From an uncultured Bacteroidota bacterium (GTDB lineage Bacteria; Bacteroidota; Bacteroidia; Flavobacteriales; TMED113), in contig CACAKI010000002.1 in NCBI GenBank assembly GCA_902533035.1, forward strand, positions 12,191 to 76,190: a stretch of DNA of 64,000 bases, read 5' to 3'. Of this stretch, positions 554-45,628 are shown one piece after another; position 1 is the stretch's first letter; each line of letters opens with the position of its first letter. The notes beneath the pieces were generated by a model. It was not told the origin of the DNA. It was given only the letters and a program-made list of their open reading frames with translations, and did no database searches. The position numbers and the translations under genes were made by a program.

Positions 554-1504
554 TTGTGTAAAGAAAATTTGTCTGTTTTGTTAGAACGAAAAATAATATT
601 TAAAAATATAGATTTACTTGATGTTTTTGGTACAAAAGAAAAAAAATTAAAAGTAATGAAATCTTATTATCCTAATTTAAATATTACATTAAGAGGAGAA
701 GTAATGTTAGTTTTTGGTAGTAAAAAATTAGTTAATGAATTTGAAGAAAAAATAAATTATATAGTAAAACGCTATAAGATCAATAATAGTTTAGAGGAAA
801 GTGATATTCATTATATTTTTAGTGATATTGAAAATAACTTTTTTCATCAAGATGTTATTTTACATGGATATTCAGGTTTAGTTATAAAACCAAGAACAAA
901 AAATCAAAAAAAAATGATTGAAATGTCTTCAGAGTATGATATGATTTTTGTTTCTGGACCTGCTGGTACTGGAAAAACGTATACATCAGTTGCTTTGGCT
1001 GTAAAAGCTCTTAAAGAAAGAGAAGTAAAAAAAATTATCCTTACCAGACCGGCTGTTGAGAGTGGTGAAAATTTAGGGTTTTTACCAGGTGATCTAAAAG
1101 AAAAATTAGATCCATATATGTCTCCTTTATATGATTCTTTATCTGACATGTTACCTCCTGCTAAACTAAAAAAATTATTAAATGATAATAAAATAGAAAT
1201 TGCTCCACTAGCATTTATGAGAGGGAGAACTTTAGATTCTGCATTTGTGATTTTAGATGAAGCTCAAAATGCTACTATTTCACAAATGAAAATGTTTTTG
1301 ACTCGAATGGGATCTTCTGCTAAATTTATTATTACTGGTGATATGACTCAAATAGATCTACCGAAAAATCAAAAATCAGGATTACTTCATGCAATAAAGA
1401 TTTTAAAAAAAGAAAAAAAAATAGGATTTTTAAACTTGAAAGACACTGATGTAATTAGACATAAATTAGTACAATCAATAATTAAAGCTTACAACAATGA
1501 ATAA
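554..1504 (+). CDS. phoH: PhoH family ATPase
   Basis: 316-aa ORF with Walker [10 protein letters not shown], Walker B-like VILDEAQN and MRGRTL. The track start at 554 is TTG. An in-frame TTG at 578 (MLERKIIF...) is equally plausible. Confidence 0.9.
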
Positions 1505-34954: not shown

Positions 34955-37645
34955 ATGAATTGGAAAGATTTATTATTTAAAAAAAAATTACTATTCCATG
35001 TGATTAGTATTACTTTATTTGCTGTAATTACATTAGTTTATTGTAGCCCTATACTTGAAGGGAAAAGAATAAAGCAAGGGGACATTATCCAATTTCAAGG
35101 AATGTCTAAAGAAATACAAGATTTTAGAGACAAAACAGGTAATGAGGCGCTTTGGACCAACTCAATGTTTGGGGGAATGCCTGCTTATCAGATTTCAGTA
35201 AAATATCCAAATAATATATTACTTCATATTGACAAAGCTTTACAATTAGGTTTTCCTAGACCTATAGGTGTGATGTTTTTATATTTTCTAGGTTTTTATA
35301 TTCTAATGTTATCTATGAAATTAGATTATAAATTAGCTTTTTTGGCTTCCATAGCTTTTGGTCTTTCATCTTATTTTCTAATAATTTTAGAGGCAGGGCA
35401 TAATACTAAAGCACATGCTATTTCTTACATGGCGCCCACTATAGCTGGAATGTTATGGTGCTTTAGAGGGAAAAGATTATTAGGTTTCTTTTTGACTTTC
35501 TTGTTTTTAGGGTTACAAATTAGAGCAAACCATCCTCAAATAAGTTATTATTTGATGTTTGTTTTATTTTCTTTTTGGTTAGCATATTTAATTTACTCTA
35601 TCAAAGACAAAAAGATAAAATTTTTTATCTCTAACACTGCAGTTTTTGTTTTAGGTTGTTTTCTAGCTATTATGATTAATATAGCATCTCTTTGGTCTAC
35701 CTATGATTATAGCAAGTATACTATGCGTGGAGGTTCTGATTTAATTCAAGAAGAGTCAGGTCTGAAACAAGATTATGCTATGAAATGGAGCTATGGTAAA
35801 ATGGAAACCTTTAATCTATTAATTCCAAATTTATATGGAGGTATATCAAAATCATTTTTAGAAGATGAAGACTCAGAGATTTATAAGAAAATTATAAGTA
35901 TTCAAAGTAAAAAAGAATCTGAGTTTCTAAAACACTTTAATGAATGGGGTAAAAATATTTTAGGTGTTGATTTTAATTTATATAATGTACTTAGAAGTAA
36001 AAACCAGTCTAAACAAATAACTGAACAAGAAATGGAAACTCTTATGGAGTTACATGGTAAAATACAACAATCTGAAGCAGTTGTTATGCAAAAGCAAAAT
36101 GAAATTGCTTCAAAAATTTTCACTGAAAAATTTGATAATGATTTACAATCTTTACAAGCTAGCACTTCACAATATTGGGGCCCTCAAGCTTTCACTTCAG
36201 GTCCTGTTTATTTAGGCTCTACTGTACTTTTTTTATTTTTCTTAAGCTTATTTTTATTTTTCCATGATACACAAAGAATTAAAATTCTAAAAACATGTCT
36301 TTTAGGTTTATGTTTTATTGCCTTACTATTAGCTTGGGGTAGTAATTTAGAATGGTTTAATAATTTATTTTTTAATTACTTTCCTCTCTATAATAAATTT
36401 AGAACTGTTTCAATGATTTTAATTATAGTTCAGTTGGCTATTCCTATTATTGCAATTTTGGGATTAAACAGTTTTTTAAATTCTGATCTAAATACAAAAG
36501 CAAAAAGAAATAAAATTTTGTTAGCAGGTGGGTTAGGAGTTTTTATTTGTTTAGGATTTGTATTGTTTTGGAAGCAGTTTTATACTTTTTCTAATGATTT
36601 ATCAACTGAATATGCTACTTTTTTTGATGCTTTAAAAAATGCTCATTTTTCTTTATTAAAGAATGATGTTTTTCGAACAATAATTTTGATATTTATTTGT
36701 GCTATAATTTTAATAGCTTTTTCTTTTAAAAGATTGAATAAAAATTGGGTAATTGGCCTTATTACTTGTTTAATACTTTTTGATCTTTGGGATGTTAATA
36801 AGAGATATTTGAATAATGATGATTTTGTTCAAAAAAGTAAAATGGACAACCCATATAATTTCCCAACCAATGATGAGCAAATAAAATCAGATACTACAAT
36901 ATTTAGGGTTTTTAATGGTGATGAGCGTTTTTCTGGCACTAATACATCTTATTTTTTTCATAGTCTAGGTGGCTATCATGGAGCGAAACTAAGTAAATAT
37001 CAAAATTTAATTGACTCTGTTTTTTTACATAGAAACCCTGTTTCAGCATTTCGTATGTTAAATACTAAATATTTGATCCAGAATAAAAATGTGGTTAAAA
37101 CAGAATCTCAATTTGGGCAATCGCCTTTAGGTAATGCTTGGTTTATAGAAAATATTGACACTGTTTCTGAAAATGTTGATGAACTTAATGGTTTAAGAAG
37201 TTTTTTCTTTAATCCAGCAACAACAGCAATTATAAATCAAGATCAATTAAAGGATATAAAAGAATTTGAGTATGATAGTACAGCCACTATTCGTTTAATT
37301 GCCAATAAAAACAATTACAATCCGAGTAGGTTAGTGTATAAAACATCAGATTTAAAAAACACCCAATTAGCTGTTTTTTCTGAGATATATTATCCAAAAG
37401 GGTGGGATGTTTATATTGATGGTGAAGAAGTAAATTATTTTAGAGTTAATTATTTGTTGAGAGGGTTAATGATTCCGAAAGGTGAACATGAAATAGTATT
37501 TGAATTTAAACCTAATTCCTTTTATGTTGGAAATAAAATAGCGCTAGGTTCTTCAATAATTTTTTTAATTACTTTTTTCACAGTTTTAATTTATTATTTA
37601 AAACCTGAGTTGTTAAACAATATATACTCAAAGTCTCAAGTTTAA
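34955..37645 (+). CDS. YfhO family polytopic membrane protein (GT-C-type glycosyltransferase candidate)
   Basis: 896-aa ORF with more than 10 TM segments. The N-terminal block QFQGMSKEIQDFRDKTGNEALWTNSMFGGMPAYQIS is characteristic of flavobacterial YfhO-family proteins as I recall them. It has a large C-terminal extracytoplasmic domain and a final TM helix. Confidence 0.7.
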   Translation: MNWKDLLFKKKLLFHVISITLFAVITLVYCSPILEGKRIKQGDIIQFQGMSKEIQDFRDKTGNEALWTNSMFGGMPAYQISVKYPNNILLHIDKALQLGFPRPIGVMFLYFLGFYILMLSMKLDYKLAFLASIAFGLSSYFLIILEAGHNTKAHAISYMAPTIAGMLWCFRGKRLLGFFLTFLFLGLQIRANHPQISYYLMFVLFSFWLAYLIYSIKDKKIKFFISNTAVFVLGCFLAIMINIASLWSTYDYSKYTMRGGSDLIQEESGLKQDYAMKWSYGKMETFNLLIPNLYGGISKSFLEDEDSEIYKKIISIQSKKESEFLKHFNEWGKNILGVDFNLYNVLRSKNQSKQITEQEMETLMELHGKIQQSEAVVMQKQNEIASKIFTEKFDNDLQSLQASTSQYWGPQAFTSGPVYLGSTVLFLFFLSLFLFFHDTQRIKILKTCLLGLCFIALLLAWGSNLEWFNNLFFNYFPLYNKFRTVSMILIIVQLAIPIIAILGLNSFLNSDLNTKAKRNKILLAGGLGVFICLGFVLFWKQFYTFSNDLSTEYATFFDALKNAHFSLLKNDVFRTIILIFICAIILIAFSFKRLNKNWVIGLITCLILFDLWDVNKRYLNNDDFVQKSKMDNPYNFPTNDEQIKSDTTIFRVFNGDERFSGTNTSYFFHSLGGYHGAKLSKYQNLIDSVFLHRNPVSAFRMLNTKYLIQNKNVVKTESQFGQSPLGNAWFIENIDTVSENVDELNGLRSFFFNPATTAIINQDQLKDIKEFEYDSTATIRLIANKNNYNPSRLVYKTSDLKNTQLAVFSEIYYPKGWDVYIDGEEVNYFRVNYLLRGLMIPKGEHEIVFEFKPNSFYVGNKIALGSSIIFLITFFTVLIYYLKPELLNNIYSKSQV

Positions 37646-37650
37646 GTAGA

Positions 37651-38919
37651 ATGAAAAAGATATTATTAATTAGTTACTACTGGCCACCTAATGCTGGAGT
37701 AGGGGCTAGGAGATGGTTGAATTTTCAAAAGTATTTTTCCAAGGAATTTGCAATTACTGTTTATACACCTGAAAACCCAAGTATGTTAAATGAAGATAAT
37801 TCTTTATTAAACCAGGTATCCTCAGGTACTCAAGTTATAAAACAAAAAATTTGGGAGCCGTATGATTTATATAAAAGATTTACAAAGAAAAGAAAAGTTA
37901 ATCCAGGAGTTTTAATTGATTCCACTAATGGTTTCAAAGATAAATTCACTAATTGGGTTAGGTCTAATTTTTTTATTCCAGATGCTAAATGTTTTTGGAT
38001 TGAGCACTCAGTTTCTTTTTTATCTAAGCTTTTTTTAAAAGAAAATTATGATTTTGTTATTTCTACAGGCCCTCCACACAGCATGCATTTAATAGCTCTT
38101 AAATTAAGAGAAAAGCATAATTTCAAATGGATAGCTGATTTTAGAGATCCGTGGACCAACATGGAGTATTTTTCCAAACTACCTCTTTTAGATTCTTCTA
38201 GAAGAAAACATTTTGATTTAGAAAAAAAAGTAATTTCAAAAGCTGATTTAACATTAACAGTAAGTAAGTTTTGGTCTAAAGAATTTTCTCGATTAGGTGC
38301 TAAAAAAACAGAGGTAGTTTATAATGGATTCGAAAAGTATAATTCTCCAATCCAATTTCATGATAAGTTTAGGATAGGTTATTTTGGTCTTTTTAATGAA
38401 CTTAGGGATCATGACGAAATATGGAAAGCTTTACGTAAAAATATTTCTAGAAATACAAATTTCGAAAAAGATTTAGAGATATATTTTTCTGGTCCTACTC
38501 ATAAAAATTTTCATAAAAACTTAAAAAATAATCACTTAGATAATTATTTAAATTATTGTGAATGGAATAACACAGAGAAAATGAAAGAGGAAATGCTAAA
38601 ATGTAGTGTTTTAATTCTTTCTCAAGCTAATACAGAAGATGCTATGGGAAGGCTTCCTGCTAAATTTTTTGAATATTTAGGAACAGGTATTCCAATTATA
38701 GCTATAGGTAGAAAAAACTCTGATTTATCTAAAATAATTTTAAAAATGCAATGCGGAGTCTTTTTTGAATTTAATAAATTACATAAGCTTTCAAGTTGTT
38801 TTTTAAACTATTATGACAAATATTTGAAAAAGGAAAACAATATAAAGAAAAATGATGTAGATGTTTTTTCTTGGGAGAATCAAGCAAGTAATTTTATAGA
38901 GGTATTAAAAAAATTATAA
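37651..38919 (+). CDS. GT-B fold glycosyltransferase (family 4-like)
   Basis: 422-aa ORF with N-terminus KILLISYYWPPNAGVGARR and C-terminal LPAKFFEYLGTGIPIIAIG, typical of group-1 glycosyltransferases. Confidence 0.6.
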   Translation: MKKILLISYYWPPNAGVGARRWLNFQKYFSKEFAITVYTPENPSMLNEDNSLLNQVSSGTQVIKQKIWEPYDLYKRFTKKRKVNPGVLIDSTNGFKDKFTNWVRSNFFIPDAKCFWIEHSVSFLSKLFLKENYDFVISTGPPHSMHLIALKLREKHNFKWIADFRDPWTNMEYFSKLPLLDSSRRKHFDLEKKVISKADLTLTVSKFWSKEFSRLGAKKTEVVYNGFEKYNSPIQFHDKFRIGYFGLFNELRDHDEIWKALRKNISRNTNFEKDLEIYFSGPTHKNFHKNLKNNHLDNYLNYCEWNNTEKMKEEMLKCSVLILSQANTEDAMGRLPAKFFEYLGTGIPIIAIGRKNSDLSKIILKMQCGVFFEFNKLHKLSSCFLNYYDKYLKKENNIKKNDVDVFSWENQASNFIEVLKKL

Positions 38920-40190
38920 TGAAAGAGACTTCTTCGTATTTTAATAAATTAGTTTCATCTTCTTTTTTAAGAAATGTCATTACTCTCTCTGCTGGAATGG
39001 GTTTAGCATCTTTTATTTCATTTTGTTTTTTATTTATTTTAACTAGACTGTTTACTCCAGAGGAATTTGGAAAATGGGATGTTTTTATGAGAATAATCCA
39101 ATTAGTTGCGATATTATTTACTTTGAGGCTTGAGATGACAATAGTTTTACCTAAGGACCAAAAAGAAGCGACTAAAGTCTCTTTGCTTTCTTTAGTTATA
39201 CTTTTTTTATTGTCCTTTTTGTCTTTAATCATTTTTTTTCTTTTTCATGATTATTTTAATTCTTTAATTGGCAATCCCTTTGATTCTTGGTGGTTAATTT
39301 TAATTCCGTTAGGAGGTTTTTTTCTTGGCTTCTATAATATTTTATTAAATTGGAATAGTCGTTTTGAAAATTATAAAAAAATTTCAAAATCTAATGTTGT
39401 TCATTCTTCTGTTAGCTCTCCTCTATCTGCTGTATTATATTTTCTAGGACTATCTTCCGCTTTAGGGTTAATTTTAGGTCAAATTTTCGCAAGAGTAATT
39501 GCTGTATATTTTCTAATTCATAATTTCTTCTCTGAAATAAAAAAAATTAAATTTTCAGAATTTTTGAATTCATCTAAAAATTTAATTAAAAAATACAGAA
39601 GCTTTCCTCTATTTGAAATTCCACAAAGTTTATTGCAAAGATTTTCAAATGATATAATTTTTTATTTTACTGCTTTTGCATTTGGGGGTGCTACTGTAGG
39701 AATATTGAGTGTTTCAGAAAAAATATTAGCAAAACCTTTAAATATTATTTCTGAGTCTTTTAAAGTTGCATTTTATCAAAGATTAACAATTGAAAAAAAT
39801 AAAACTACATTTTTTTTAAAATCTGTATTGGGCATGTTCTTTTTTGGAGTTCTTGCAGTATGTTTAATTTACTTTATTCCAGTTGATGCTTTTAAGTTTC
39901 TTTTAGGAGATAATGATTGGGTAAAGGTTGGGTTGTATATTAAAATAATTTCCCCATTGGTTTTATCAAGGTTTGTTTTTGTCATGGCAAGTGGTGCTAT
40001 TGCATATAGATTAAAAAATCATATAACTTTATTATGGAGAATTTTATATTGTGTTTTATTAATAATATTATTTTCATGTATTAAGTGGAATAGTGATGAA
40101 GAATTATTATTAATTTACTCTATTCTAGGAGCCTTGATGTATCTTTTTTTAGGTATCTTATCATTTTTTGTTTTAAAAAAGAATAATTAG
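38919..40190 (+). CDS. Polysaccharide/oligosaccharide flippase (Wzx-like, MOP superfamily)
   Basis: 423-aa ORF with about 12 TM segments and the layout of 'polysaccharide biosynthesis protein' flippases. Its ATG overlaps the upstream stop (ATAATG). Confidence 0.6.
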   Translation: MKETSSYFNKLVSSSFLRNVITLSAGMGLASFISFCFLFILTRLFTPEEFGKWDVFMRIIQLVAILFTLRLEMTIVLPKDQKEATKVSLLSLVILFLLSFLSLIIFFLFHDYFNSLIGNPFDSWWLILIPLGGFFLGFYNILLNWNSRFENYKKISKSNVVHSSVSSPLSAVLYFLGLSSALGLILGQIFARVIAVYFLIHNFFSEIKKIKFSEFLNSSKNLIKKYRSFPLFEIPQSLLQRFSNDIIFYFTAFAFGGATVGILSVSEKILAKPLNIISESFKVAFYQRLTIEKNKTTFFLKSVLGMFFFGVLAVCLIYFIPVDAFKFLLGDNDWVKVGLYIKIISPLVLSRFVFVMASGAIAYRLKNHITLLWRILYCVLLIILFSCIKWNSDEELLLIYSILGALMYLFLGILSFFVLKKNN

Positions 40191-40197
40191 TATAAAA

Positions 40198-41043
40198 TTG
40201 AAAGTCCTTATTATTACTCCAGCATATAATGAAGAGAAAGTTCTTCAATTAACTATTGATTCTGTAGTTAATCAAGATTTTTTACCTGTAGAGTGGATAA
40301 TTGTAGATGATAATTCTCAAGATCAAACAAGTAATCTTGCGCGTCAGGCTGCTATTAAGCATAAATGGATAAATTACCTTAAAAAAGAAAAAAAACAAAA
40401 CACAGGCCCAGGCAAAGCCGTTATGGAAGCTTTTTACTTTGGTTATGATAATAAAAAAGTAAATGATTTCGATATAGTTATGAAATTGGATGCTGATATT
40501 ATTTTGCCTAAAAATTACATTTCAGAGATCATAAAAAGAATGGAAGCGGATAAAAATATAGGAATTTGTGGTGGAATTTGTTTAACAAATGGAATAGAAG
40601 AAAGGATTACCAATTTAGATCATGTAAGAGGGGCTATTAAGTGTTATAGAAAACAATGTTTTTTAGAAATAGGTGGTTTATTAAAAAGTATGGGTTGGGA
40701 CACTGTAGATGAACATACTGCACGATTTTTTAATTGGAATGTCTCGGTTTTTATAGATTTAAAAGTTCATCATCAACGTAAAACAAATTTTAAATCTGGA
40801 TATGCTAAAGCAGGATATATTAATGGAAAAATGCTTTATTCTATTAGAATGGATTTTTTCTTAATGCTAACAAATGTTTTCAAGTGGAGTTTGAGATTTC
40901 CATATATTATTTCAGGTTTATCTTTATTTTTTGGATACCTAAAAGCTATGTTTTGTTTTGAAGAAAAAATAGTTTCTAAAGATTTAGGTGTTTTTATTAG
41001 AAAGTATAGGTATAAAAAAATTAGAGAGAAATTTAATTTTTAA
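40198..41043 (+). CDS. Family 2 glycosyltransferase with C-terminal membrane anchor (GtrB/CsbB-like layout)
   Basis: 281-aa ORF with a TTG start. It has the GT-A signature ITPAYNEE...IIVDDNSQD and a DxD (KLDADI). Hydrophobic C-terminal segments are FFLMLTNVF and YIISGLSLFFGYLKAMF. Confidence 0.7.
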   Translation: MKVLIITPAYNEEKVLQLTIDSVVNQDFLPVEWIIVDDNSQDQTSNLARQAAIKHKWINYLKKEKKQNTGPGKAVMEAFYFGYDNKKVNDFDIVMKLDADIILPKNYISEIIKRMEADKNIGICGGICLTNGIEERITNLDHVRGAIKCYRKQCFLEIGGLLKSMGWDTVDEHTARFFNWNVSVFIDLKVHHQRKTNFKSGYAKAGYINGKMLYSIRMDFFLMLTNVFKWSLRFPYIISGLSLFFGYLKAMFCFEEKIVSKDLGVFIRKYRYKKIREKFNF

Positions 41044-41458
41044 CTCTTGTCCAAGTTGTCGTTTTACCAAATAAAGTAAAACCTAGGTATCCTCTTAAAT
41101 CTAATTTATTTTGATTAGTCATGTACACTTCTAATGAATATGTCTTTCCGCTTCTAGCATCATAGATTTCTCCATTAGACCACTCTCCTTTTTTTATATA
41201 TTCTAAATCCTTTAGTATAATTAATCCATTTATAGGGTTTTTCCTTAATGAGGGATTTGGATTTTCTTTATCTAATTTCACCTTTCCATTTTCGTCTAAA
41301 GGTTCTTTAAGCCAGATTATTTTTCCAAAAAAAGAATTTCCTTTTTTATAAATTTCTATTTTGGATTGTTTTTCTTCTTCTAACCAAACTCCCAAAATAG
41401 CATCTGATTGAGATTGGCAAAAAAATGCAATTAATAAAAAAAATATATTTAATCTCAT
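41033..41458 (-). CDS. DUF2147 domain periplasmic protein
   Basis: 141-aa ORF with a signal peptide, then ILGVWLEEEKQSKIEIYKKGNSFFGKIIWLKEP and GEIYDARSGKTY, typical of DUF2147. It lies 2 nt downstream of the M1 peptidase gene. Confidence 0.7.
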   Translation of the reverse strand: MRLNIFFLLIAFFCQSQSDAILGVWLEEEKQSKIEIYKKGNSFFGKIIWLKEPLDENGKVKLDKENPNPSLRKNPINGLIILKDLEYIKKGEWSNGEIYDARSGKTYSLEVYMTNQNKLDLRGYLGFTLFGKTTTWTRVKN

Positions 41459-41460
41459 AA

Positions 41461-44400
41461 TTAGAATGATTTATTTATACCAAGTAGCCATCTAAATTTA
41501 ATATTGTTTTCAGAATTAGGAGGATCACTAAGAAAAAATGGAAAATCAAGTCTAAATAATAATGGTTTTTCAAAATCATAATAACCGTTTACAATTTGAC
41601 CTAAATCACAAGCTAAACCAATTCCTAAATTACTTCTTAGGCTACCAAATGAAAGATTATTTTCCACATTATCATTATTGATGACTCCAATATCATAAAA
41701 CAAATAAGAATCAACAATAGGTAATTTATTGAAAAACCTTAGAGCACCATATTGTTTTGTAATAGATTTTAGCTTGTTTGTAAAAGAGACTTCAATATTC
41801 ATTGATATTCCTCCAATACCATAATTTGTATTTACTGTGCCTTCATCAGTATTTTCAAGCATGTAATTACCAGAGTAACCCCTTAAGTTAAGTCCACCCC
41901 CAACATGGAAATGATTAGTCCCAATGCTATAATCTGCACTTTCTTTTGATATAAATCCAGCAGATCTTGATAGAGTGTAATCCATCATTTGTTCAGGGTT
42001 TGCTCCTGCTGCAAATAACATACTTTCGATAGGGAAGTTTTGACCAAATCCGGCTTGAGCAAAAAATCTAGTTTTTATACCTAAACCAAAAATGTTGTTT
42101 TTATTAATACTAGTTAATGAAATTTGAGAAAAATTATAATCACTTAACCAAGAAGAACTTCTTAATGATAAGTTTATATGCCCTTTTCCAGAAACATACG
42201 CATATTTATGAGATAAATTTACAGATAAGATACTATTATATTTATTTTCAGATGGGTTTCTAAAAGGTCCCCATAAATTTTCGTTTAGAAGATAATTCAA
42301 ATCATTATAATCTTTTCTTATCATTCCTTTAAATCCTATTGTTATGCTATTTTGTTTTTGATAATCTTCTATTTCTAAAGATAAAGAATGAGCATCTAAA
42401 CCATCTAAATGTTTTATTGATCCAGAAAACGAACTATTTTTTATGTATTTGTCTAATGCAGTTGAATAATCAAAGCCATATGAAATAATATCATTTCCAG
42501 GTTTATTAGAGTAATTAGAGTTATTTAAAAATGTGCTATTTATAAAGAAAAAAGAATTAATCAAATGATGTTCTCCTAAATATCCTCCCTTCATATCTAC
42601 ACCTAATTTAATTCCATCATATGAGTTGTATCCTATAGCTGGTCTAACTTTAAATTCATAAAACTTCCAATCTGGGTGTTGGTAGACACCATAATTTAGT
42701 GAATATTTGGTATTTCCTTTTAATCTATTGTTTAGCATATAATTATCACCCAATCTATAAGTAGGGTCAATAATTACATTTTCAATTCCACTTGAATCTG
42801 GAATGTAAACAGAAAAATTATATGTTTGATTTAATTTTCCAAAGCCTGTCCACTTAGGTAAGATTTCATATTTTGTTTTTTTAATAAATTCTTTATTAGG
42901 TATATGGTAACGTTTTTTTAGTCCAAATTTTGAAATAACAACTAAATCAATTGGCATCTCCATACCATTTGGGTCTCTTTTTAATTCAATATTATAATTT
43001 GCTTCATCTATTTGTGTTACATTAGATACAGAATAATCTAAACCTTTGGTGCTTTCAAGCCATTGGTCAAAAAACCAATTTAAATCCACTTTTGAAGATT
43101 TAATTATTGAATTTCTGAAATCCTTAAAATAAGGATGACACATTCTCCAAGTGCTAAAATAATCTTGCATTGCTTTTAAAAATAAATCATCTCCTAAAAC
43201 ATATTGTAGATTATATAGCATTACTCCAGGTTTGTAGTACACATGTCTATATCCACCGCCGTGATGAAGAGCACTTCCAAAATCATGAGAATGTGTATTT
43301 AATTTAGGAGTATTGTTAATAGTAGCATCTTTCATATATCGATTATATATTTCTTCATCAATGGATAATAATTTGAATTCTTCATTTTTAAAAAGACGGC
43401 TTCTAGGAGCTTCAGCTGAATATGGTCCATCAATTTTATTTAAGCCCCAAGCAGTTAAAAACTGAGTAAAACCTTCATCCAAAGAAGCTCTATATGTTTC
43501 ATTACTTCCAACCATACCATAAAACCAATTATGACCTATTTCGTGTACAAATAAATCTCGATAATAAGGGTCAAAACCACTATCTAGTGTTAGCATTGGA
43601 TACTCCATTCCATCTCTCGCATCAGCAACTATCATTTTGTGATATACATACATACCTATATCCTCAGAAAACACTTCTATAGTCTTAGCAGTATAATCTG
43701 CAGCGTTTTGCCATCCGGCTGCGTGATGTTCTTGAGCTAAAGAATAACATTTAATACCATTCCATTCACTTTCTCCGATTCTATATGTTGGGTCAGCTGT
43801 AAAAGCAAAATCATGTACATTTTCTGCGTGAAATATCCATGTTTTTTTAACTTTTGGATTATGAGGGATTATAATAGATGGTTTTTCATTCCAAGGTTTA
43901 TTAGCAAAATTTCTAATATCTATTTTTTTTCTAAGACTTGGTGGAAGAACTTCGTTTCTATTTAGCATATTCCCTGTTCCTTCTACGATGTAATTTGCAG
44001 GGAATGTAAGTTCTACATCAAATGCTCCAAAATTTCCGTAAAATTCTTTTACTAAGTGCTGATCAATAGTCCATCCAAATTTTGCGTCATATACAGCAAT
44101 TCTTGGATACCAATGAACACCATTATAATGTTTTAATTTTTTTGTTTCTTCATCATGTTCTCCATCCCATGAATCATAATATTTCATTCTTCTTCCATAT
44201 GGATACTTATTGAAATAAGTTTTGAAGTCTATATTAAAAATAATTTTTTCTCCAGTTTTAAGAGGAGAGTTTAAATATACTTTTAATATTGTATTGTCTA
44301 GTTCTGTTTTTAGATCTATTCCCTCAGATGAAATTGCTAATATTTCTGTTCCTCTTCCAACACCTTCAAATGTTTCATCTACTCTGTTATTAACTTTTTT

Positions 44401-44733
44401 TAAATTTTCATAGTAAGAATCCTCTTGAAATGCGTTTTGATAAAGATGAAAATAAACAACATTTAATTCATCCGGTGAATTATTCCAATATGTTAGTTTT
44501 TGAGATGCGGAAATTATATTATCTAAATCATTAATTTCTGCTTTTATTTCATAATACACATCTTGTTGCCAATATCCCTCATATGGCTGTTTGTTTTTCC
44601 AATAATTTGGATTGTCTAAATGATTATAAGTGTTTGGTTTGTTTATTGGATTGTAATTGGTTTTGAATGAATTTAAATTTTGTGAAAACACAAAACCAAT
44701 CATTAAAAAAAATAAAAACAAAATCTTTTTCAT
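41461..44733 (-). CDS. Secreted M1-family zinc metallopeptidase fused to a C-terminal Omp85/surface-antigen-type beta-barrel
   Basis: 1090-aa ORF with signal peptide MKKILFLFFLMIGFVFSQ. It has DGMEYPM (GxMEN-like) and HEIGHNWFYGMVGSNETYRASLDE, which is HEXXH(X18)E, at aa 397..420 (nt 43531..43545 for HEIGH). The C-terminal ~450 aa have beta-strand patterning, GGGLNLRGYSG (Omp85 loop-6-like (V/L)RG(F/Y), nt 41875..41886) and a terminal ...LLGINKSF. Confidence 0.75.
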   Translation of the reverse strand: MKKILFLFFLMIGFVFSQNLNSFKTNYNPINKPNTYNHLDNPNYWKNKQPYEGYWQQDVYYEIKAEINDLDNIISASQKLTYWNNSPDELNVVYFHLYQNAFQEDSYYENLKKVNNRVDETFEGVGRGTEILAISSEGIDLKTELDNTILKVYLNSPLKTGEKIIFNIDFKTYFNKYPYGRRMKYYDSWDGEHDEETKKLKHYNGVHWYPRIAVYDAKFGWTIDQHLVKEFYGNFGAFDVELTFPANYIVEGTGNMLNRNEVLPPSLRKKIDIRNFANKPWNEKPSIIIPHNPKVKKTWIFHAENVHDFAFTADPTYRIGESEWNGIKCYSLAQEHHAAGWQNAADYTAKTIEVFSEDIGMYVYHKMIVADARDGMEYPMLTLDSGFDPYYRDLFVHEIGHNWFYGMVGSNETYRASLDEGFTQFLTAWGLNKIDGPYSAEAPRSRLFKNEEFKLLSIDEEIYNRYMKDATINNTPKLNTHSHDFGSALHHGGGYRHVYYKPGVMLYNLQYVLGDDLFLKAMQDYFSTWRMCHPYFKDFRNSIIKSSKVDLNWFFDQWLESTKGLDYSVSNVTQIDEANYNIELKRDPNGMEMPIDLVVISKFGLKKRYHIPNKEFIKKTKYEILPKWTGFGKLNQTYNFSVYIPDSSGIENVIIDPTYRLGDNYMLNNRLKGNTKYSLNYGVYQHPDWKFYEFKVRPAIGYNSYDGIKLGVDMKGGYLGEHHLINSFFFINSTFLNNSNYSNKPGNDIISYGFDYSTALDKYIKNSSFSGSIKHLDGLDAHSLSLEIEDYQKQNSITIGFKGMIRKDYNDLNYLLNENLWGPFRNPSENKYNSILSVNLSHKYAYVSGKGHINLSLRSSSWLSDYNFSQISLTSINKNNIFGLGIKTRFFAQAGFGQNFPIESMLFAAGANPEQMMDYTLSRSAGFISKESADYSIGTNHFHVGGGLNLRGYSGNYMLENTDEGTVNTNYGIGGISMNIEVSFTNKLKSITKQYGALRFFNKLPIVDSYLFYDIGVINNDNVENNLSFGSLRSNLGIGLACDLGQIVNGYYDFEKPLLFRLDFPFFLSDPPNSENNIKFRWLLGINKSF

Positions 44734-44782: not shown

Positions 44783-45628
44783 TTATGGTACTTCTGCTTT
44801 TAAACTCATATCAATATTTTTTACTGAATGGGTTAGTGCCCCTATGGAGATGTAATCTATGCCAGTTTTTGCATATTCTTTTATATTTGTCTCATTAACA
44901 TTTCCTGAGACTTCGAGAGGTGTTTTCTTATTTATTAATTTGACCGCTTGTTTCATTTCGGCTATTTTAAAATTATCAAGAATAATTCTAGTGATTTCAT
45001 TGAATTTTAAAATATTTTTTAATTCTTCTATATTTCTTACTTCTACTATGATGGGTAGGTTTTTTACTTTTTTAGAATATTGTATTGCTTTATTTACAGT
45101 ATGTGATATTCCTTGTGTATAATCTACATGAGTATCTTTTATCAAAATAACATCGTATAGTCCCATTCTATGATTTTCTCCTCCTCCAATTTTTACAGCC
45201 CATTTTTCTAAGAATCTAATATTAGGAGTAGTTTTTCTAGTATCTAATACTTTTACATTATATTTTTTTATTAATGATGTTATTTTTTTTGTTTTAGTTG
45301 CTATTCCACTCATTCTTTGCATACAGTTTAACACTAATCTTTCCATTGCTAAGATTGATCGTATTTTCCCAGTAACTTTTAAAATAGTATCATTAATAGT
45401 TATATTTTGACCATCTTTTTTTAAAATTTCTACTTTTAAATTTTTGTCATAATAATGAAATATATTTTTTGCTAATTCAACTCCTGCAACAATCCCATTT
45501 TCTTTACTCATTAAATTTGCGGTTCCTGGTTTTTTTTCTGGTATACAACAAATTGAGGTGTGGTCACCATCTTTTATGTCCTCTTCAACACATCTTTCAA
45601 TAAATCTGTGTAATTTTTTTTGATTCAT
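44783..45628 (-). CDS. nadC: Nicotinate-nucleotide pyrophosphorylase (carboxylating)
   Basis: 281-aa ORF with the QPRTase patterns LDTRKTTPN, ENHRMGLYD, LIKDTH and EVSGN. Confidence 0.9.
   Translation of the reverse strand: MNQKKLHRFIERCVEEDIKDGDHTSICCIPEKKPGTANLMSKENGIVAGVELAKNIFHYYDKNLKVEILKKDGQNITINDTILKVTGKIRSILAMERLVLNCMQRMSGIATKTKKITSLIKKYNVKVLDTRKTTPNIRFLEKWAVKIGGGENHRMGLYDVILIKDTHVDYTQGISHTVNKAIQYSKKVKNLPIIVEVRNIEELKNILKFNEITRIILDNFKIAEMKQAVKLINKKTPLEVSGNVNETNIKEYAKTGIDYISIGALTHSVKNIDMSLKAEVP

What the first reader, a model, noticed from the sequence alone, without database searches (positions are those of the whole stretch)
41461..44733. M1 zinc aminopeptidase-like domain fused to an Omp85-type beta-barrel: an autotransporter-like (type Vd-style) protease?
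The 1090-aa protein has a signal peptide and a complete M1 catalytic core (DGMEYPM; HEIGHNWFYGMVGSNETYRASLDE, which is HEXXH-X18-E). Its C-terminal ~450 aa look like an outer-membrane barrel. That region has alternating strand patterning, a GGGLNLRGYSG segment resembling the conserved (V/L)RG(F/Y) loop-6 motif of Omp85/BamA/TpsB-family barrels, and a terminal aromatic residue (...INKSF). Omp85-type barrels fused to an enzymatic passenger are known for patatin-like PlpD (type Vd secretion). A peptidase passenger on such a barrel would be a different cargo class, and would be a T9SS-independent way for a flavobacterium to display an aminopeptidase on its surface. A DUF2147 periplasmic protein is encoded 2 nt downstream, probably in the same operon.
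Basis: partly seen in the sequence, partly recalled or inferred. Interest (0 to 1): 0.55.

Follow-up and report, generated by a model that had tools for sequence, protein, structure and literature searches.

The report
M1 aminopeptidase fused to Omp85 barrel
This gene encodes a zinc aminopeptidase joined to a BamA-like outer-membrane barrel, a fusion that databases label only as "M1 peptidase" although it is common in Bacteroidota and related phyla; the barrel is real, but whether the enzyme sits on the cell surface or in the periplasm is untested, and what is known about related proteins favours the periplasm.

Summary
ORF 41461-44733 (-) encodes a 1090-aa protein with a signal peptide and the first three domains of an M1 aminopeptidase (HEXXH-X18-E; catalytic Tyr499; Foldseek E 1e-22 to IRAP/ERAP1). 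Residues 692-1090 form a confidently predicted 16-strand beta-barrel. All top 50 PDB fold matches of the barrel are TamA or BamA. The 74-aa loop between strands 11 and 12 carries a near-invariant LRGY motif, and strand 13 carries FxDxG, both Omp85 hallmarks. A barrel profile aligns in register with E. coli BamA (E 3.5e-5), and one family member passes Pfam's Omp85 threshold. The barrel takes the place of the helical M1 domain IV. There is no POTRA domain. The architecture occurs in at least 581 species-level genomes of Bacteroidota and also in Calditrichota, Gemmatimonadota, KSB1, Zixibacteria and Marinimicrobia, always annotated as "M1 family peptidase". I found no description of it in the literature. 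The "type Vd autotransporter / surface display" reading is unsupported: Omp85 N-terminal domains are periplasmic, and the type Vd prototype PlpD was shown in 2024 to keep its enzyme in the periplasm. The most likely reading is an outer-membrane-anchored, periplasm-facing aminopeptidase. The link to DUF2147 is local only (3 of 80 loci). It is a new variant of a known kind and moderately interesting.

The parts
41461..44733 (-). Whole gene: 1090-aa M1 aminopeptidase-Omp85 barrel fusion protein (stop codon 41461-41463)
   Evidence: ORF list. More than 5000 homologues, the top 120 all full length. AF2 full-length model has pLDDT 84.2 and pTM 0.81.
44680..44733 (-). Signal peptide, residues 1-18 (type I, no lipobox cysteine)
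   Evidence: Sequence MKKILFLFFLMIGFVFS|QN. AF2 helix 2-19 followed by a low-confidence stretch. The cleavage site is inferred, not predicted by a tool.
43732..44574 (-). M1 domain I, the N-terminal beta domain, residues ~54-334
   Evidence: DSSP strands 57-334. The Foldseek alignment of ~650 columns with IRAP/ERAP1/APN covers domains I-III.
43048..43731 (-). M1 catalytic (thermolysin-like) domain, residues ~335-562. It holds DGMEY (374-378), H397-E398-x-x-H401, E420 and the catalytic Y499.
   Evidence: Pfam PF01433 E 2.1e-12. Motif translated. Y499 aligns with PepN Y381 (hhalign 96.7%, E 4.6e-10). The residues are invariant or nearly so.
42769..43047 (-). All-beta sandwich, residues ~563-655, equivalent to M1 domain III. 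It occupies the place where a POTRA domain would be but is not one.
   Evidence: Six strands and no helices in DSSP. The region aligns with PepN 455-508 and lies within the M1 Foldseek alignments. No POTRA hit in Pfam.
42661..42768 (-). Conserved 36-aa linker, residues 656-691 (family motif IDPxxRLADxxxLNN; D656, D663 and N669 nearly invariant). It is shared with short paralogues that lack the peptidase.
   Evidence: Translation. Conservation. pLDDT ~83-92 in the full-length model. Aligned in the short form P0127.
41464..42660 (-). 16-strand Omp85-type beta-barrel, residues 692-1090, ending in an aromatic residue (F1090)
   Evidence: AF2 barrel-only model has pLDDT 87.2 and pTM 0.86. The 50 best Foldseek PDB hits are all TamA/BamA, E 5.8e-9 to 4.2e-7, probability 1.00. 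Dyad hydrophobicity in the strands. hhalign against BamA gives E 3.5e-5.
41815..42036 (-). Loop 6 equivalent, residues 900-973, between strands 11 and 12, with GGGLNLRGY (945-953)
   Evidence: Translation. Loop position. G946 in 63/65, G947 in 64/65, R951 in 64/65 sequences.
41683..41715 (-). Strand 13 core with the FxDxG motif (SYLFYDIGVIN, residues 1009-1019; F1012, D1014, G1016)
   Evidence: Aligned in register with BamA FFWDMGTV. F in 62/65, D in 61/65, G in 56/65 sequences.
41033..41458 (-). Downstream DUF2147 gene (141 aa, own signal peptide), 2 nt after the stop codon. It is a local neighbour, not a conserved partner.
   Evidence: Pfam PF09917 E 1.7e-35. Present downstream in only 3 of 80 related loci.

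Best explanation
The gene encodes one polypeptide made of two modules. After a Sec signal peptide come the first three domains of an M1 zinc aminopeptidase: the N-terminal beta domain, the catalytic domain and the beta-sandwich domain III. Where other M1 enzymes carry the helical domain IV, this protein has a POTRA-less, 16-strand barrel of the Omp85 (BamA/TamA) superfamily. The two are joined by a short, conserved and rigidly predicted linker. Shown: the domain identities, the barrel fold, the Omp85 motifs, the conservation of the catalytic residues and the phylogenetic spread. Inferred: the barrel is inserted in the outer membrane by BAM. Because strand 1 of an Omp85 barrel starts at the periplasmic face, the peptidase module stays in the periplasm, held directly under the outer membrane. 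There it would remove N-terminal residues from oligopeptides that have crossed the outer membrane, or from unfolded envelope proteins. The periplasmic face of the barrel may do the capping job that domain IV does in soluble M1 enzymes.
For: M1 module: Pfam PF01433. Foldseek of the full model against IRAP, ERAP1, ERAP2 and APN gives E 1e-22 to 1e-18 over ~650 columns. HEXXH-X18-E is present. Y499 aligns with PepN Y381. All six catalytic positions are kept in 57 of 61 full-length members of a diverse set. Barrel: 16 strands, pLDDT 87, pTM 0.86. The top 50 PDB fold hits are all TamA/BamA. A 74-aa loop lies between strands 11 and 12 with a near-invariant LRGY motif, and FxDxG sits on strand 13. 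hhalign of a 65-sequence barrel profile against E. coli BamA gives 71.8% probability and E 3.5e-5, with window 848-1068 matched to BamA 588-793 in register for strands 12-15. Family member P0262 scores 26.1 bits on Pfam Omp85 against a 24-bit cutoff, and P0341 carries PF03865 ShlB. Rigid coupling: full-length pTM 0.81 and linker pLDDT ~83-92. Periplasmic placement: the Omp85 strand order; no helix or long segment in the linker that could span the pore; no lipobox; no Pfam hit in the C-terminal 423 aa, including T9SS sorting domains. Periplasmic turns T6 and T7 are unusually long (22 and 15 aa) while extracellular loops L1, L3 and L5 have 2-6 aa. The experimental precedent is that PlpD's enzyme domain is periplasmic (PMC11116518). 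A housekeeping role is suggested by presence in at least 581 species genomes, retention in a ~1.7-Mb streamlined genome, and stable synteny with nadC.
Against: The topology was not tested. I could not obtain model coordinates, so I did not see on which face of the barrel AF2 places the M1 module, nor whether R951 contacts D1014. The window protein itself gets no Pfam Omp85 hit. TM-scores to BamA/TamA are moderate (0.4-0.56) with high rmsd. The exopeptidase motif is DGMEY rather than GXMEN, and parts of the active site have low pLDDT (residues 381-390, 411-420 and 481-500), so aminopeptidase activity is inferred only. Four lineages have lost catalytic residues, and short paralogues lack the peptidase yet keep the linker and barrel. 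This hints that the barrel does more than anchor an enzyme. No conserved partner gene points to a substrate.
Confidence: 0.6

Rival explanations
1. One reading: a self-exporting surface aminopeptidase. The Omp85-type barrel, or a BAM hybrid-barrel intermediate, translocates the N-terminal M1 module across the outer membrane and displays it on the cell surface without the T9SS.
For: The enzyme-then-barrel order matches passenger-then-translocator order in type Va and the originally proposed type Vd. Globular aminopeptidase passengers exist on classical autotransporters, for example AaaA of P. aeruginosa (PMC3426542, found). TpsB-type Omp85 barrels do conduct polypeptides, and P0341 has a ShlB-type Pfam hit. 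Marine Bacteroidota would plausibly benefit from a surface aminopeptidase (inference).
Against: No Omp85 barrel has been shown to export a domain of its own chain, and the only proposed case, PlpD, was refuted (PMC11116518). There is no POTRA domain and no pore-spanning helix: the linker is 36 aa with a 4-residue helix. A loop-6 equivalent with the conserved lock motifs is present and would be expected to occupy the lumen. The passenger would be a ~640-aa zinc enzyme of three domains that must cross unfolded with no energy source. Extracellular loops are short, while the periplasmic turns are elaborated.
Confidence: 0.2
2. A transport-coupled peptidase. The barrel is a working channel rather than an anchor. 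Peptides or unfolded polypeptides pass through the Omp85 pore or its lateral seam and go straight to, or come from, the M1 active site docked at the periplasmic mouth, with the barrel replacing domain IV as the wall of the substrate chamber.
For: The barrel sits exactly where domain IV, the lid of the active-site chamber in M1 enzymes, would be. The inter-module geometry is predicted to be rigid (pTM 0.81). The linker and barrel motifs are conserved even in members without an active peptidase, which suggests the barrel has its own function. Strand 16 is only 4 residues long, reminiscent of the weak BamA seam (a comparison from general knowledge).
Against: No structural contacts could be inspected. 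BamA/TamA-type barrels are closed by loops 4, 6 and 7, and none is known to import peptides. No genomic link to peptide transporters was found.
Confidence: 0.1
3. An envelope quality-control factor. The barrel keeps a BamA-like ability to bind beta-signals or nascent outer-membrane proteins, and the tethered peptidase degrades stalled or misfolded substrates, comparable to BepA acting at BAM.
For: Heinz and Lithgow proposed periplasmic quality control for enzyme-fused Omp85 proteins (PMC4104836). BepA, a metalloprotease, acts at the BAM complex (PMC13655028, listed). The family is core-like and retained in streamlined genomes.
Against: M1 enzymes are exopeptidases acting on free N-termini, a poor fit for clearing folded or stalled barrels. 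There are no POTRA domains to receive substrates. There is no co-purification or genetic evidence, and the two Bacteroidota BAM structure papers do not mention a peptidase.
Confidence: 0.08
4. The C-terminal region is not a membrane barrel but a soluble M1 accessory domain of the ERAP-type helical domain IV kind, making this an ordinary long aminopeptidase.
For: Databases annotate the whole family only as M1 peptidase, and Pfam finds nothing in the C-terminus of this protein.
Against: Both AF2 models give an all-beta, 16-strand closed sheet with high confidence. All top fold hits are BamA/TamA. The strands show dyad hydrophobic patterning. There is profile similarity to BamA and a Pfam Omp85 hit in a family member.
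Confidence: 0.02

Closest known systems
PlpD / FplA (patatin-like Omp85 proteins, the 'type Vd' family)
   Same: One chain with an N-terminal hydrolase and a C-terminal 16-strand Omp85 barrel. It is not a known assembly or translocation factor. By analogy, the enzyme probably works on the periplasmic side.
   Different: PlpD has a patatin phospholipase and one POTRA domain. This protein has an M1 zinc aminopeptidase (three domains, ~640 aa) and no POTRA. phmmer with the barrel does not retrieve PlpD-type proteins. PlpD's dimerisation and lid dynamics are unknown here.
'noNterm' and 'Metallo' Omp85 subfamilies of Heinz & Lithgow 2014 (PMC4104836)
   Same: These are Omp85 barrels with no N-terminal extension (noNterm) or with an N-terminal metallo-enzyme domain (Metallo). 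That paper left open the same question of a periplasmic or surface location for the fused enzyme.
   Different: Their 'Metallo' domain is PF00149 and that subfamily is conserved only at genus level. The family here carries PF01433 (M1) and spans several phyla. It could not appear in their Pfam-based census because the Omp85 HMM misses nearly all members: 1 of 43 scanned.
BamA / TamA barrels
   Same: 16 strands, a long loop 6 between strands 11 and 12 with an (L/V)RG(Y/F) motif, FxDxG on strand 13, a short last strand and a C-terminal aromatic residue. They are the best fold matches and align in register by profile.
   Different: No POTRA domains. Sequence identity is ~11-14%. The RGY motif lies ~40 residues later in loop 6 than BamA's VRGF in the hhalign alignment. 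Periplasmic turns T6 and T7 are long.
Four-domain M1 aminopeptidases (PepN, APN, ERAP1/2, IRAP)
   Same: Domains I-III, HEXXH-X18-E, the catalytic Tyr, and the Glu of the exopeptidase motif.
   Different: The helical domain IV is replaced by a membrane barrel. The exopeptidase motif is DGMEY instead of GXMEN. The protein is exported by a signal peptide. It is a deep-branching subfamily: no NCBIfam model reaches its cutoff.
AaaA-type classical (type Va) autotransporter aminopeptidase
   Same: An aminopeptidase covalently linked to an outer-membrane barrel.
   Different: AaaA, from my own knowledge, has an M28 passenger and the 12-strand type Va barrel with a pore-spanning helix, and is surface exposed. 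Here the barrel has 16 strands of the Omp85 type and no such helix.

Membership tests
M1 zinc aminopeptidases (MEROPS M1, Pfam PF01433) | HEXXH-X18-E zinc-binding motif within the thermolysin-like catalytic domain | tested here: met
   HEIGH...X18...E at residues 397-420. PF01433 E 2.1e-12, above the gathering score. In 65 aligned sequences H397 is kept in 58, E398 in 60, H401 in 57 and E420 in 59.
M1 zinc aminopeptidases (MEROPS M1, Pfam PF01433) | GXMEN exopeptidase motif that binds the substrate's free N-terminus | tested here: inconclusive
   The motif is D-G-M-E-Y (374-378). G, M and the key Glu are conserved (E377 in 57/65 sequences), but Asn is replaced by an invariant Tyr. Exopeptidase specificity therefore remains inferred.
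M1 zinc aminopeptidases (MEROPS M1, Pfam PF01433) | Catalytic tyrosine that stabilises the transition state | tested here: met
   hhalign aligns HVY(499)YK with PepN TVY(381)EK (96.7% probability). Tyr is present in 61/65 sequences.
M1 zinc aminopeptidases (MEROPS M1, Pfam PF01433) | Domain I-II-III fold | tested here: met
   Foldseek against IRAP, ERAP1, ERAP2, APN and F3: E 1e-22 to 1e-18 over 620-700 aligned columns.
M1 zinc aminopeptidases (MEROPS M1, Pfam PF01433) | C-terminal alpha-helical (ARM/HEAT-like) domain IV covering the active site | tested here: not met
   Residues 692-1090 form a beta-barrel and there is no helical domain. This is a departure in architecture and does not exclude the catalytic domain from the family.
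Omp85 superfamily (BamA/TamA/TpsB; Pfam PF01103 and PF03865) | 16-strand transmembrane beta-barrel | tested here: met
   Both AF2 models give 16 strands. The strands are amphipathic with alternating hydrophobic residues. The top 50 PDB fold hits are all TamA/BamA with probability 1.00.
Omp85 superfamily (BamA/TamA/TpsB; Pfam PF01103 and PF03865) | Long loop 6 between strands 11 and 12 carrying the (V/I/L)RG(F/Y) motif | tested here: met
   The loop spans 900-973 (74 aa) between strands 11 and 12, with L950-R951-G952-Y953. R is present in 64/65, G in 58/65 and Y or F in 58/65 sequences. Caveat: hhalign places BamA's VRGF ~40 residues earlier in the loop.
Omp85 superfamily (BamA/TamA/TpsB; Pfam PF01103 and PF03865) | (F/G)xDxG motif on strand 13, the partner of the loop-6 arginine | tested here: met
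   F1012-Y-D1014-I-G1016 lies on strand 13 and aligns with BamA FFWDMG. Conservation is F 62/65, D 61/65, G 56/65. The R951-D1014 contact itself could not be checked because no coordinates were available.
Omp85 superfamily (BamA/TamA/TpsB; Pfam PF01103 and PF03865) | Significant match to the family sequence profile | tested here: inconclusive
   The window protein has no PF01103 hit, even at E<=10. Only 1 of 43 diverse members hits PF01103 (P0262, 26.1 bits against a 24-bit cutoff) and 1 hits ShlB. The barrel profile against a single BamA sequence gives 71.8% probability and E 3.5e-5. Homology is likely but remote.
Omp85 superfamily (BamA/TamA/TpsB; Pfam PF01103 and PF03865) | [quoted passage not shown] | tested here: not met
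   There is no POTRA Pfam hit in any of 43 members. The region before the barrel is an all-beta sandwich plus a 36-aa linker with no beta-alpha-alpha-beta-beta unit. The recognised 'noNterm' subfamily shares this absence (PMC4104836).
Type Vd secretion (PlpD-like) | Patatin-like passenger plus a POTRA domain plus an Omp85 barrel | tested here: not met
   There is no patatin domain and no POTRA domain. Only the barrel type is shared.
Type Vd secretion (PlpD-like) | Passenger translocated to the cell surface or released | not testable with these tools
   This needs protease shaving or labelling experiments. For the prototype the feature has itself been refuted (PMC11116518).
Classical autotransporter (type Va) | 12-strand C-terminal barrel with an alpha-helical linker through the pore | tested here: not met
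   The barrel has 16 strands. The only helix in the linker is 4 residues long, 666-669.
T9SS cargo | C-terminal sorting domain (CTD) | tested here: not met
   The C-terminus is the last barrel strand. The Pfam scan of the C-terminal 423 aa found no secretion-tail domain at E<=10.

The most novel reading that the evidence does not exclude
The Omp85 barrel is more than an anchor. It substitutes for M1 domain IV and forms, with the catalytic module, a single gated chamber. Polypeptides or peptides would then pass through the barrel, by pore or lateral seam, directly into or out of the active site. That would make it a transport-coupled outer-membrane peptidase. The mirror version, the first genuine case of an Omp85 barrel exporting an enzyme domain of its own chain, would be comparably novel and is counted separately among the rivals. 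The linker and barrel are conserved in lineages that lost catalysis and in short paralogues without the peptidase, which is consistent with the barrel having a function of its own.
Probability: 0.12. Interest if true: 0.8.

Novelty: new variant of a known kind. Interest (0 to 1): 0.55.

Why it matters
The PlpD work raised the question of what Omp85 barrels do besides assembling and translocating proteins. This family would be a second enzyme-Omp85 lineage, and a much more widespread one. It is present in at least 581 species-level genomes of Bacteroidota, occurs in several related phyla, and is kept in ~1.7-Mb streamlined marine genomes. It is invisible to Pfam-based censuses because the Omp85 HMM misses it, and every record is labelled simply "M1 peptidase". 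It also gives a defined molecular candidate for part of the cell-associated aminopeptidase activity of marine Bacteroidota. Finally, it is a natural test case for whether an Omp85 barrel can ever export a covalently attached enzyme. If the enzyme is periplasmic, it shows a way of holding a peptidase under the outer membrane without a lipid anchor.

Tried and rejected
1. Pfam and NCBIfam on the whole protein and on the C-terminal 423 aa alone found nothing for the barrel (one SNAPC3 hit at E 0.3, noise).
2. Profile searches of PDB sequences with the full-length alignments A1 and A3 returned M1 enzymes and no Omp85 proteins up to E 10; only 60 of 73 hits were shown for A3.
3. Foldseek with the full-length model was swamped by M1 hits, so I made a barrel-only model.
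4. hhalign of the full-length profile against BamA gave only 16.8% probability. It improved to 71.8% with a more diverse barrel-only profile.
5. DUF2147 as an operon partner was rejected: it is downstream in only 3 of 80 loci.
6. The gene neighbourhoods of the window and of a short paralogue are housekeeping genes with no transporter, chaperone or T9SS link.
7. Promoter and terminator scans were uninformative in this AT-rich DNA: 26 sites against 28 expected, and no terminators.
8. Five literature searches found no description of an M1-Omp85 fusion. A hit in a domain-combination preprint was unrelated. The Bacteroidota BAM and TamL papers do not mention such a protein.
9. I could not obtain model coordinates or PAE, so the face of the barrel on which AF2 puts the M1 module, the R951-D1014 contact and the pairing partner of strand 675-679 remain unchecked.
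10. A coevolution analysis of inter-domain contacts was considered and dropped, because only ~400 sequences were at hand.

Full report
**1. The observation**

The ORF at 41461..44733 on the minus strand encodes 1090 aa. Homologues align from residue 1 to residue 1090, so the gene model is sound. The N-terminus, MKKILFLFFLMIGFVFS|QN, reads as a Sec type I signal peptide without a lipobox cysteine. I read this from the sequence; AF2 gives a helix at 2-19. Pfam finds Peptidase_M1 at residues 394-558 (E 2.1e-12). HEIGH-X18-E lies at residues 397-420. A 100-sequence alignment shows G375, M376, E377, Y378, H397, E398, H401 and E420 invariant. hhalign places Y499 on the catalytic Tyr381 of E. coli PepN (96.7% probability). 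The DUF2147 gene starts 2 nt after the stop codon.

**2. The C-terminal region**

Pfam and NCBIfam see nothing in the C-terminus, even at E<=10. I used AlphaFold2 with a 100-sequence alignment.

- The full-length model has mean pLDDT 84.2 and pTM 0.81.
- A model of residues 656-1090 alone has pLDDT 87.2 and pTM 0.86.
- Both models give the same 16 beta-strands between residues 692 and 1086.
- Nearly every strand has one hydrophobic face and one polar face, the pattern of a transmembrane barrel.
- Foldseek of the barrel model against the PDB returns only TamA and BamA barrels among the best 50 hits (E 5.8e-9 to 4.2e-7, probability 1.00, TM 0.36-0.56).

The internal landmarks of the Omp85 superfamily are in the right places.

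- The only very long loop (74 aa, residues 900-973) lies between strands 11 and 12, where loop 6 lies in BamA. It carries GGGLNLRGY.
- Strand 13 carries F1012-x-D1014-x-G1016.
- In 65 diverse family members, R951 is kept in 64, D1014 in 61 and F1012 in 62.

There is also support at the sequence level.

- A barrel-only profile of 65 sequences aligns with E. coli BamA residues 588-793 (hhalign probability 71.8%, E 3.5e-5). FxDxG and strands 12, 14 and 15 are in register.
- One family member, P0262, passes Pfam's own Omp85 gathering score (26.1 against 24 bits).
- Another member, P0341, carries a precomputed ShlB/FhaC hit.

I conclude that this is a remote but genuine Omp85-type barrel.

**3. What lies between the enzyme and the barrel**

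The full-length model matches IRAP, ERAP1, ERAP2 and APN over ~650 columns (E ~1e-22), which covers M1 domains I, II and III. Residues 563-655 are an all-beta sandwich equivalent to domain III, and they align with PepN 455-508. They are not a POTRA domain: there is no beta-alpha-alpha-beta-beta unit and no POTRA hit in 43 members.

A 36-aa linker follows (residues 656-691, family motif IDPxxRLADxxxLNN). It is conserved and confidently modelled (pLDDT ~83-92), and its only helix is 4 residues long. The barrel therefore takes the place of the helical domain IV of soluble M1 enzymes.

**4. Distribution**

- The first homologue search found more than 5000 hits. The best 120 are nearly all 1050-1180 aa at 49-99% identity, and those with a source name come from marine Flavobacteriales or Bacteroidota.
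They include Flavobacteriales, Chitinophagales, Sphingobacteriales and Weeksellaceae, with the whole protein matched at 44-52% identity.
- A search seeded with the distant member P0262 showed the same ~1000-1100-aa architecture in KSB1, Gemmatimonadota, Calditrichota, Zixibacteria, Marinimicrobia and Eisenbacteria.
- phmmer with the barrel alone against 1.84 billion cluster representatives found only 292 hits. They are this family and its fragments, with no BamA, TamA or TpsB. The barrel is therefore its own deep subfamily.
- Where the databases give a name, it is almost always "M1 family (metallo)peptidase", "aminopeptidase (N)" or "hypothetical protein".
- The window comes from a 27% GC genome, and a close relative sits on a 1.67-Mb contig. 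The gene is thus retained in a streamlined genome.

**5. Variants within the family**

- Of 61 full-length members examined, 57 keep all six catalytic positions. Four lineages (P0133, P0141, P0177, P0229) have lost several.
- Short paralogues of 615-632 aa (P0127, P0129, P0135, P0139) have their own signal peptide and an unrelated ~190-aa N-terminal region. They share the same end of the sandwich, linker and barrel (hhalign E 6.8e-70 from window residue 637 onward).
- The linker-plus-barrel module therefore persists without an active peptidase.

**6. Genomic context**

DUF2147 lies downstream in only 3 of 80 related loci. nadC lies upstream on the same strand in 34 of 80, often with a BrkB/YihY-family membrane protein gene between them. 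rlmH is nearby in 31 of 80. The neighbours in the window are housekeeping and glycan-synthesis genes. No conserved functional partner emerged.

**7. Mechanism**

*Shown:* a secreted protein with an apparently intact M1 active site, rigidly joined to an Omp85-type barrel.

*Inferred:* in every Omp85 protein, strand 1 begins at the periplasmic face and loop 6 is on the extracellular or lumenal side. The strand count here reproduces that register, so the polypeptide that precedes strand 1 is periplasmic unless something threads the pore.

Several points argue that the linker does not thread the pore.

- The linker has no pore-spanning helix.
- A conserved loop 6 is present and would be expected to fill the lumen.
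- The extracellular loops L1, L3 and L5 are 2-6 residues long, whereas periplasmic turns T6 and T7 are 22 and 15 residues with helices. This fits a docking surface on the periplasmic side.
- The one proposed precedent for self-export through an Omp85 barrel, PlpD ("type Vd"), was shown in 2024 to keep its enzyme domain in the periplasm. The authors argued that export of a folded domain is energetically implausible (PMC11116518).

I therefore favour an outer-membrane-anchored, periplasm-facing aminopeptidase (confidence ~0.6). It would trim peptides that have crossed the outer membrane. Surface display (~0.2), a transport-coupled chamber (~0.1) and a quality-control role (~0.08) remain open. 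I could not inspect model coordinates, so the topology is an inference and not a result.

**8. Comparison with what is known**

It works most like PlpD/FplA, an enzyme attached to an Omp85 scaffold, but it is not a member of that family because it lacks both the patatin domain and the POTRA domain. Within the Omp85 superfamily it resembles the POTRA-less "noNterm" group and the enzyme-fused "Metallo" group of Heinz and Lithgow (PMC4104836). The fused domain there is PF00149, and that group is conserved only at genus level. Within M1 it is a deep branch with a DGMEY motif in place of GXMEN and no domain IV. Five literature searches and four targeted readings found no description of an M1-Omp85 fusion. 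The absence of a paper in this library is not proof that none exists.

**9. Verdict**

The autotransporter mechanism is unsupported and, on current knowledge, unlikely. The DUF2147 link is incidental. The architecture is a new, widespread and unannotated variant of two known kinds. Interest is 0.55: a specialist in Omp85 or type V secretion would want to know about it, and the topology experiment is simple and decisive.

Noticed in passing
window 17351-22190 (+): A complete rRNA operon: 16S at 17351-18874, 23S at 19133-22016 and 5S at 22081-22190. It explains the jump in GC from ~27% to 44-48%.
   Followed up: yes
proteins P0127, P0129, P0135, P0139 (metagenomic; context of P0139 in locus L083 4308-6155): Short paralogues of 615-632 aa have their own signal peptide and an unrelated ~190-aa N-terminal region with no Pfam match. 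They carry the same linker and Omp85-type barrel but no M1 peptidase. The neighbourhood of P0139 is housekeeping genes.
   Followed up: partly
proteins P0133, P0141, P0177, P0229 (full-length family members): These lineages have lost several catalytic residues (zinc ligands, the catalytic Glu, the Glu of the exopeptidase motif) but keep the barrel motifs. They look like pseudo-peptidases on an intact barrel.
   Followed up: partly
protein P0142 (637 aa, metagenomic): An N-terminal transmembrane segment and a von Willebrand A domain (VWA_2, E 8e-15) are joined to the same barrel. This is either a third architecture or a gene-call or assembly fusion.
   Followed up: no
window 41815-42036 (-), residues 900-973: hhalign aligns BamA's loop-6 start 'YENFYAGGSSTVRGF' with 'ESMLFAAGANPEQM' (residues 903-916), not with the invariant GGGLNLRGY about 40 residues later. 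Loop 6 seems to hold an insertion or a displaced motif.
   Followed up: partly
window 42697-42711 (-), residues 675-679: A short strand in the linker (KYSLN) remains a strand in the barrel-only model, so it pairs with some element of the barrel domain. It may act as a plug or a rim extension. The partner could not be identified without coordinates.
   Followed up: no
loci L004, L007, L016, L039 and others, just upstream of the match; window 44783-45628 (-): nadC lies upstream on the same strand in 34 of 80 related loci. In 27 of those 34, nadC lies 0.8-2.2 kb upstream, and in most of them the gap holds a ~300-aa ORF; the one tested (locus L004) is a BrkB/YihY-family membrane protein (Pfam E 4.2e-62). 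In this window nadC is directly adjacent with a 49-nt gap.
   Followed up: partly
window 34955-41043 (+): A run of envelope-glycan genes on the opposite strand: a YfhO-like membrane protein, a GT4 glycosyltransferase, a Polysacc_synt flippase and a GT2 glycosyltransferase. It converges on the DUF2147 gene, and the two 3' ends overlap by 11 nt at 41033-41043.
   Followed up: no
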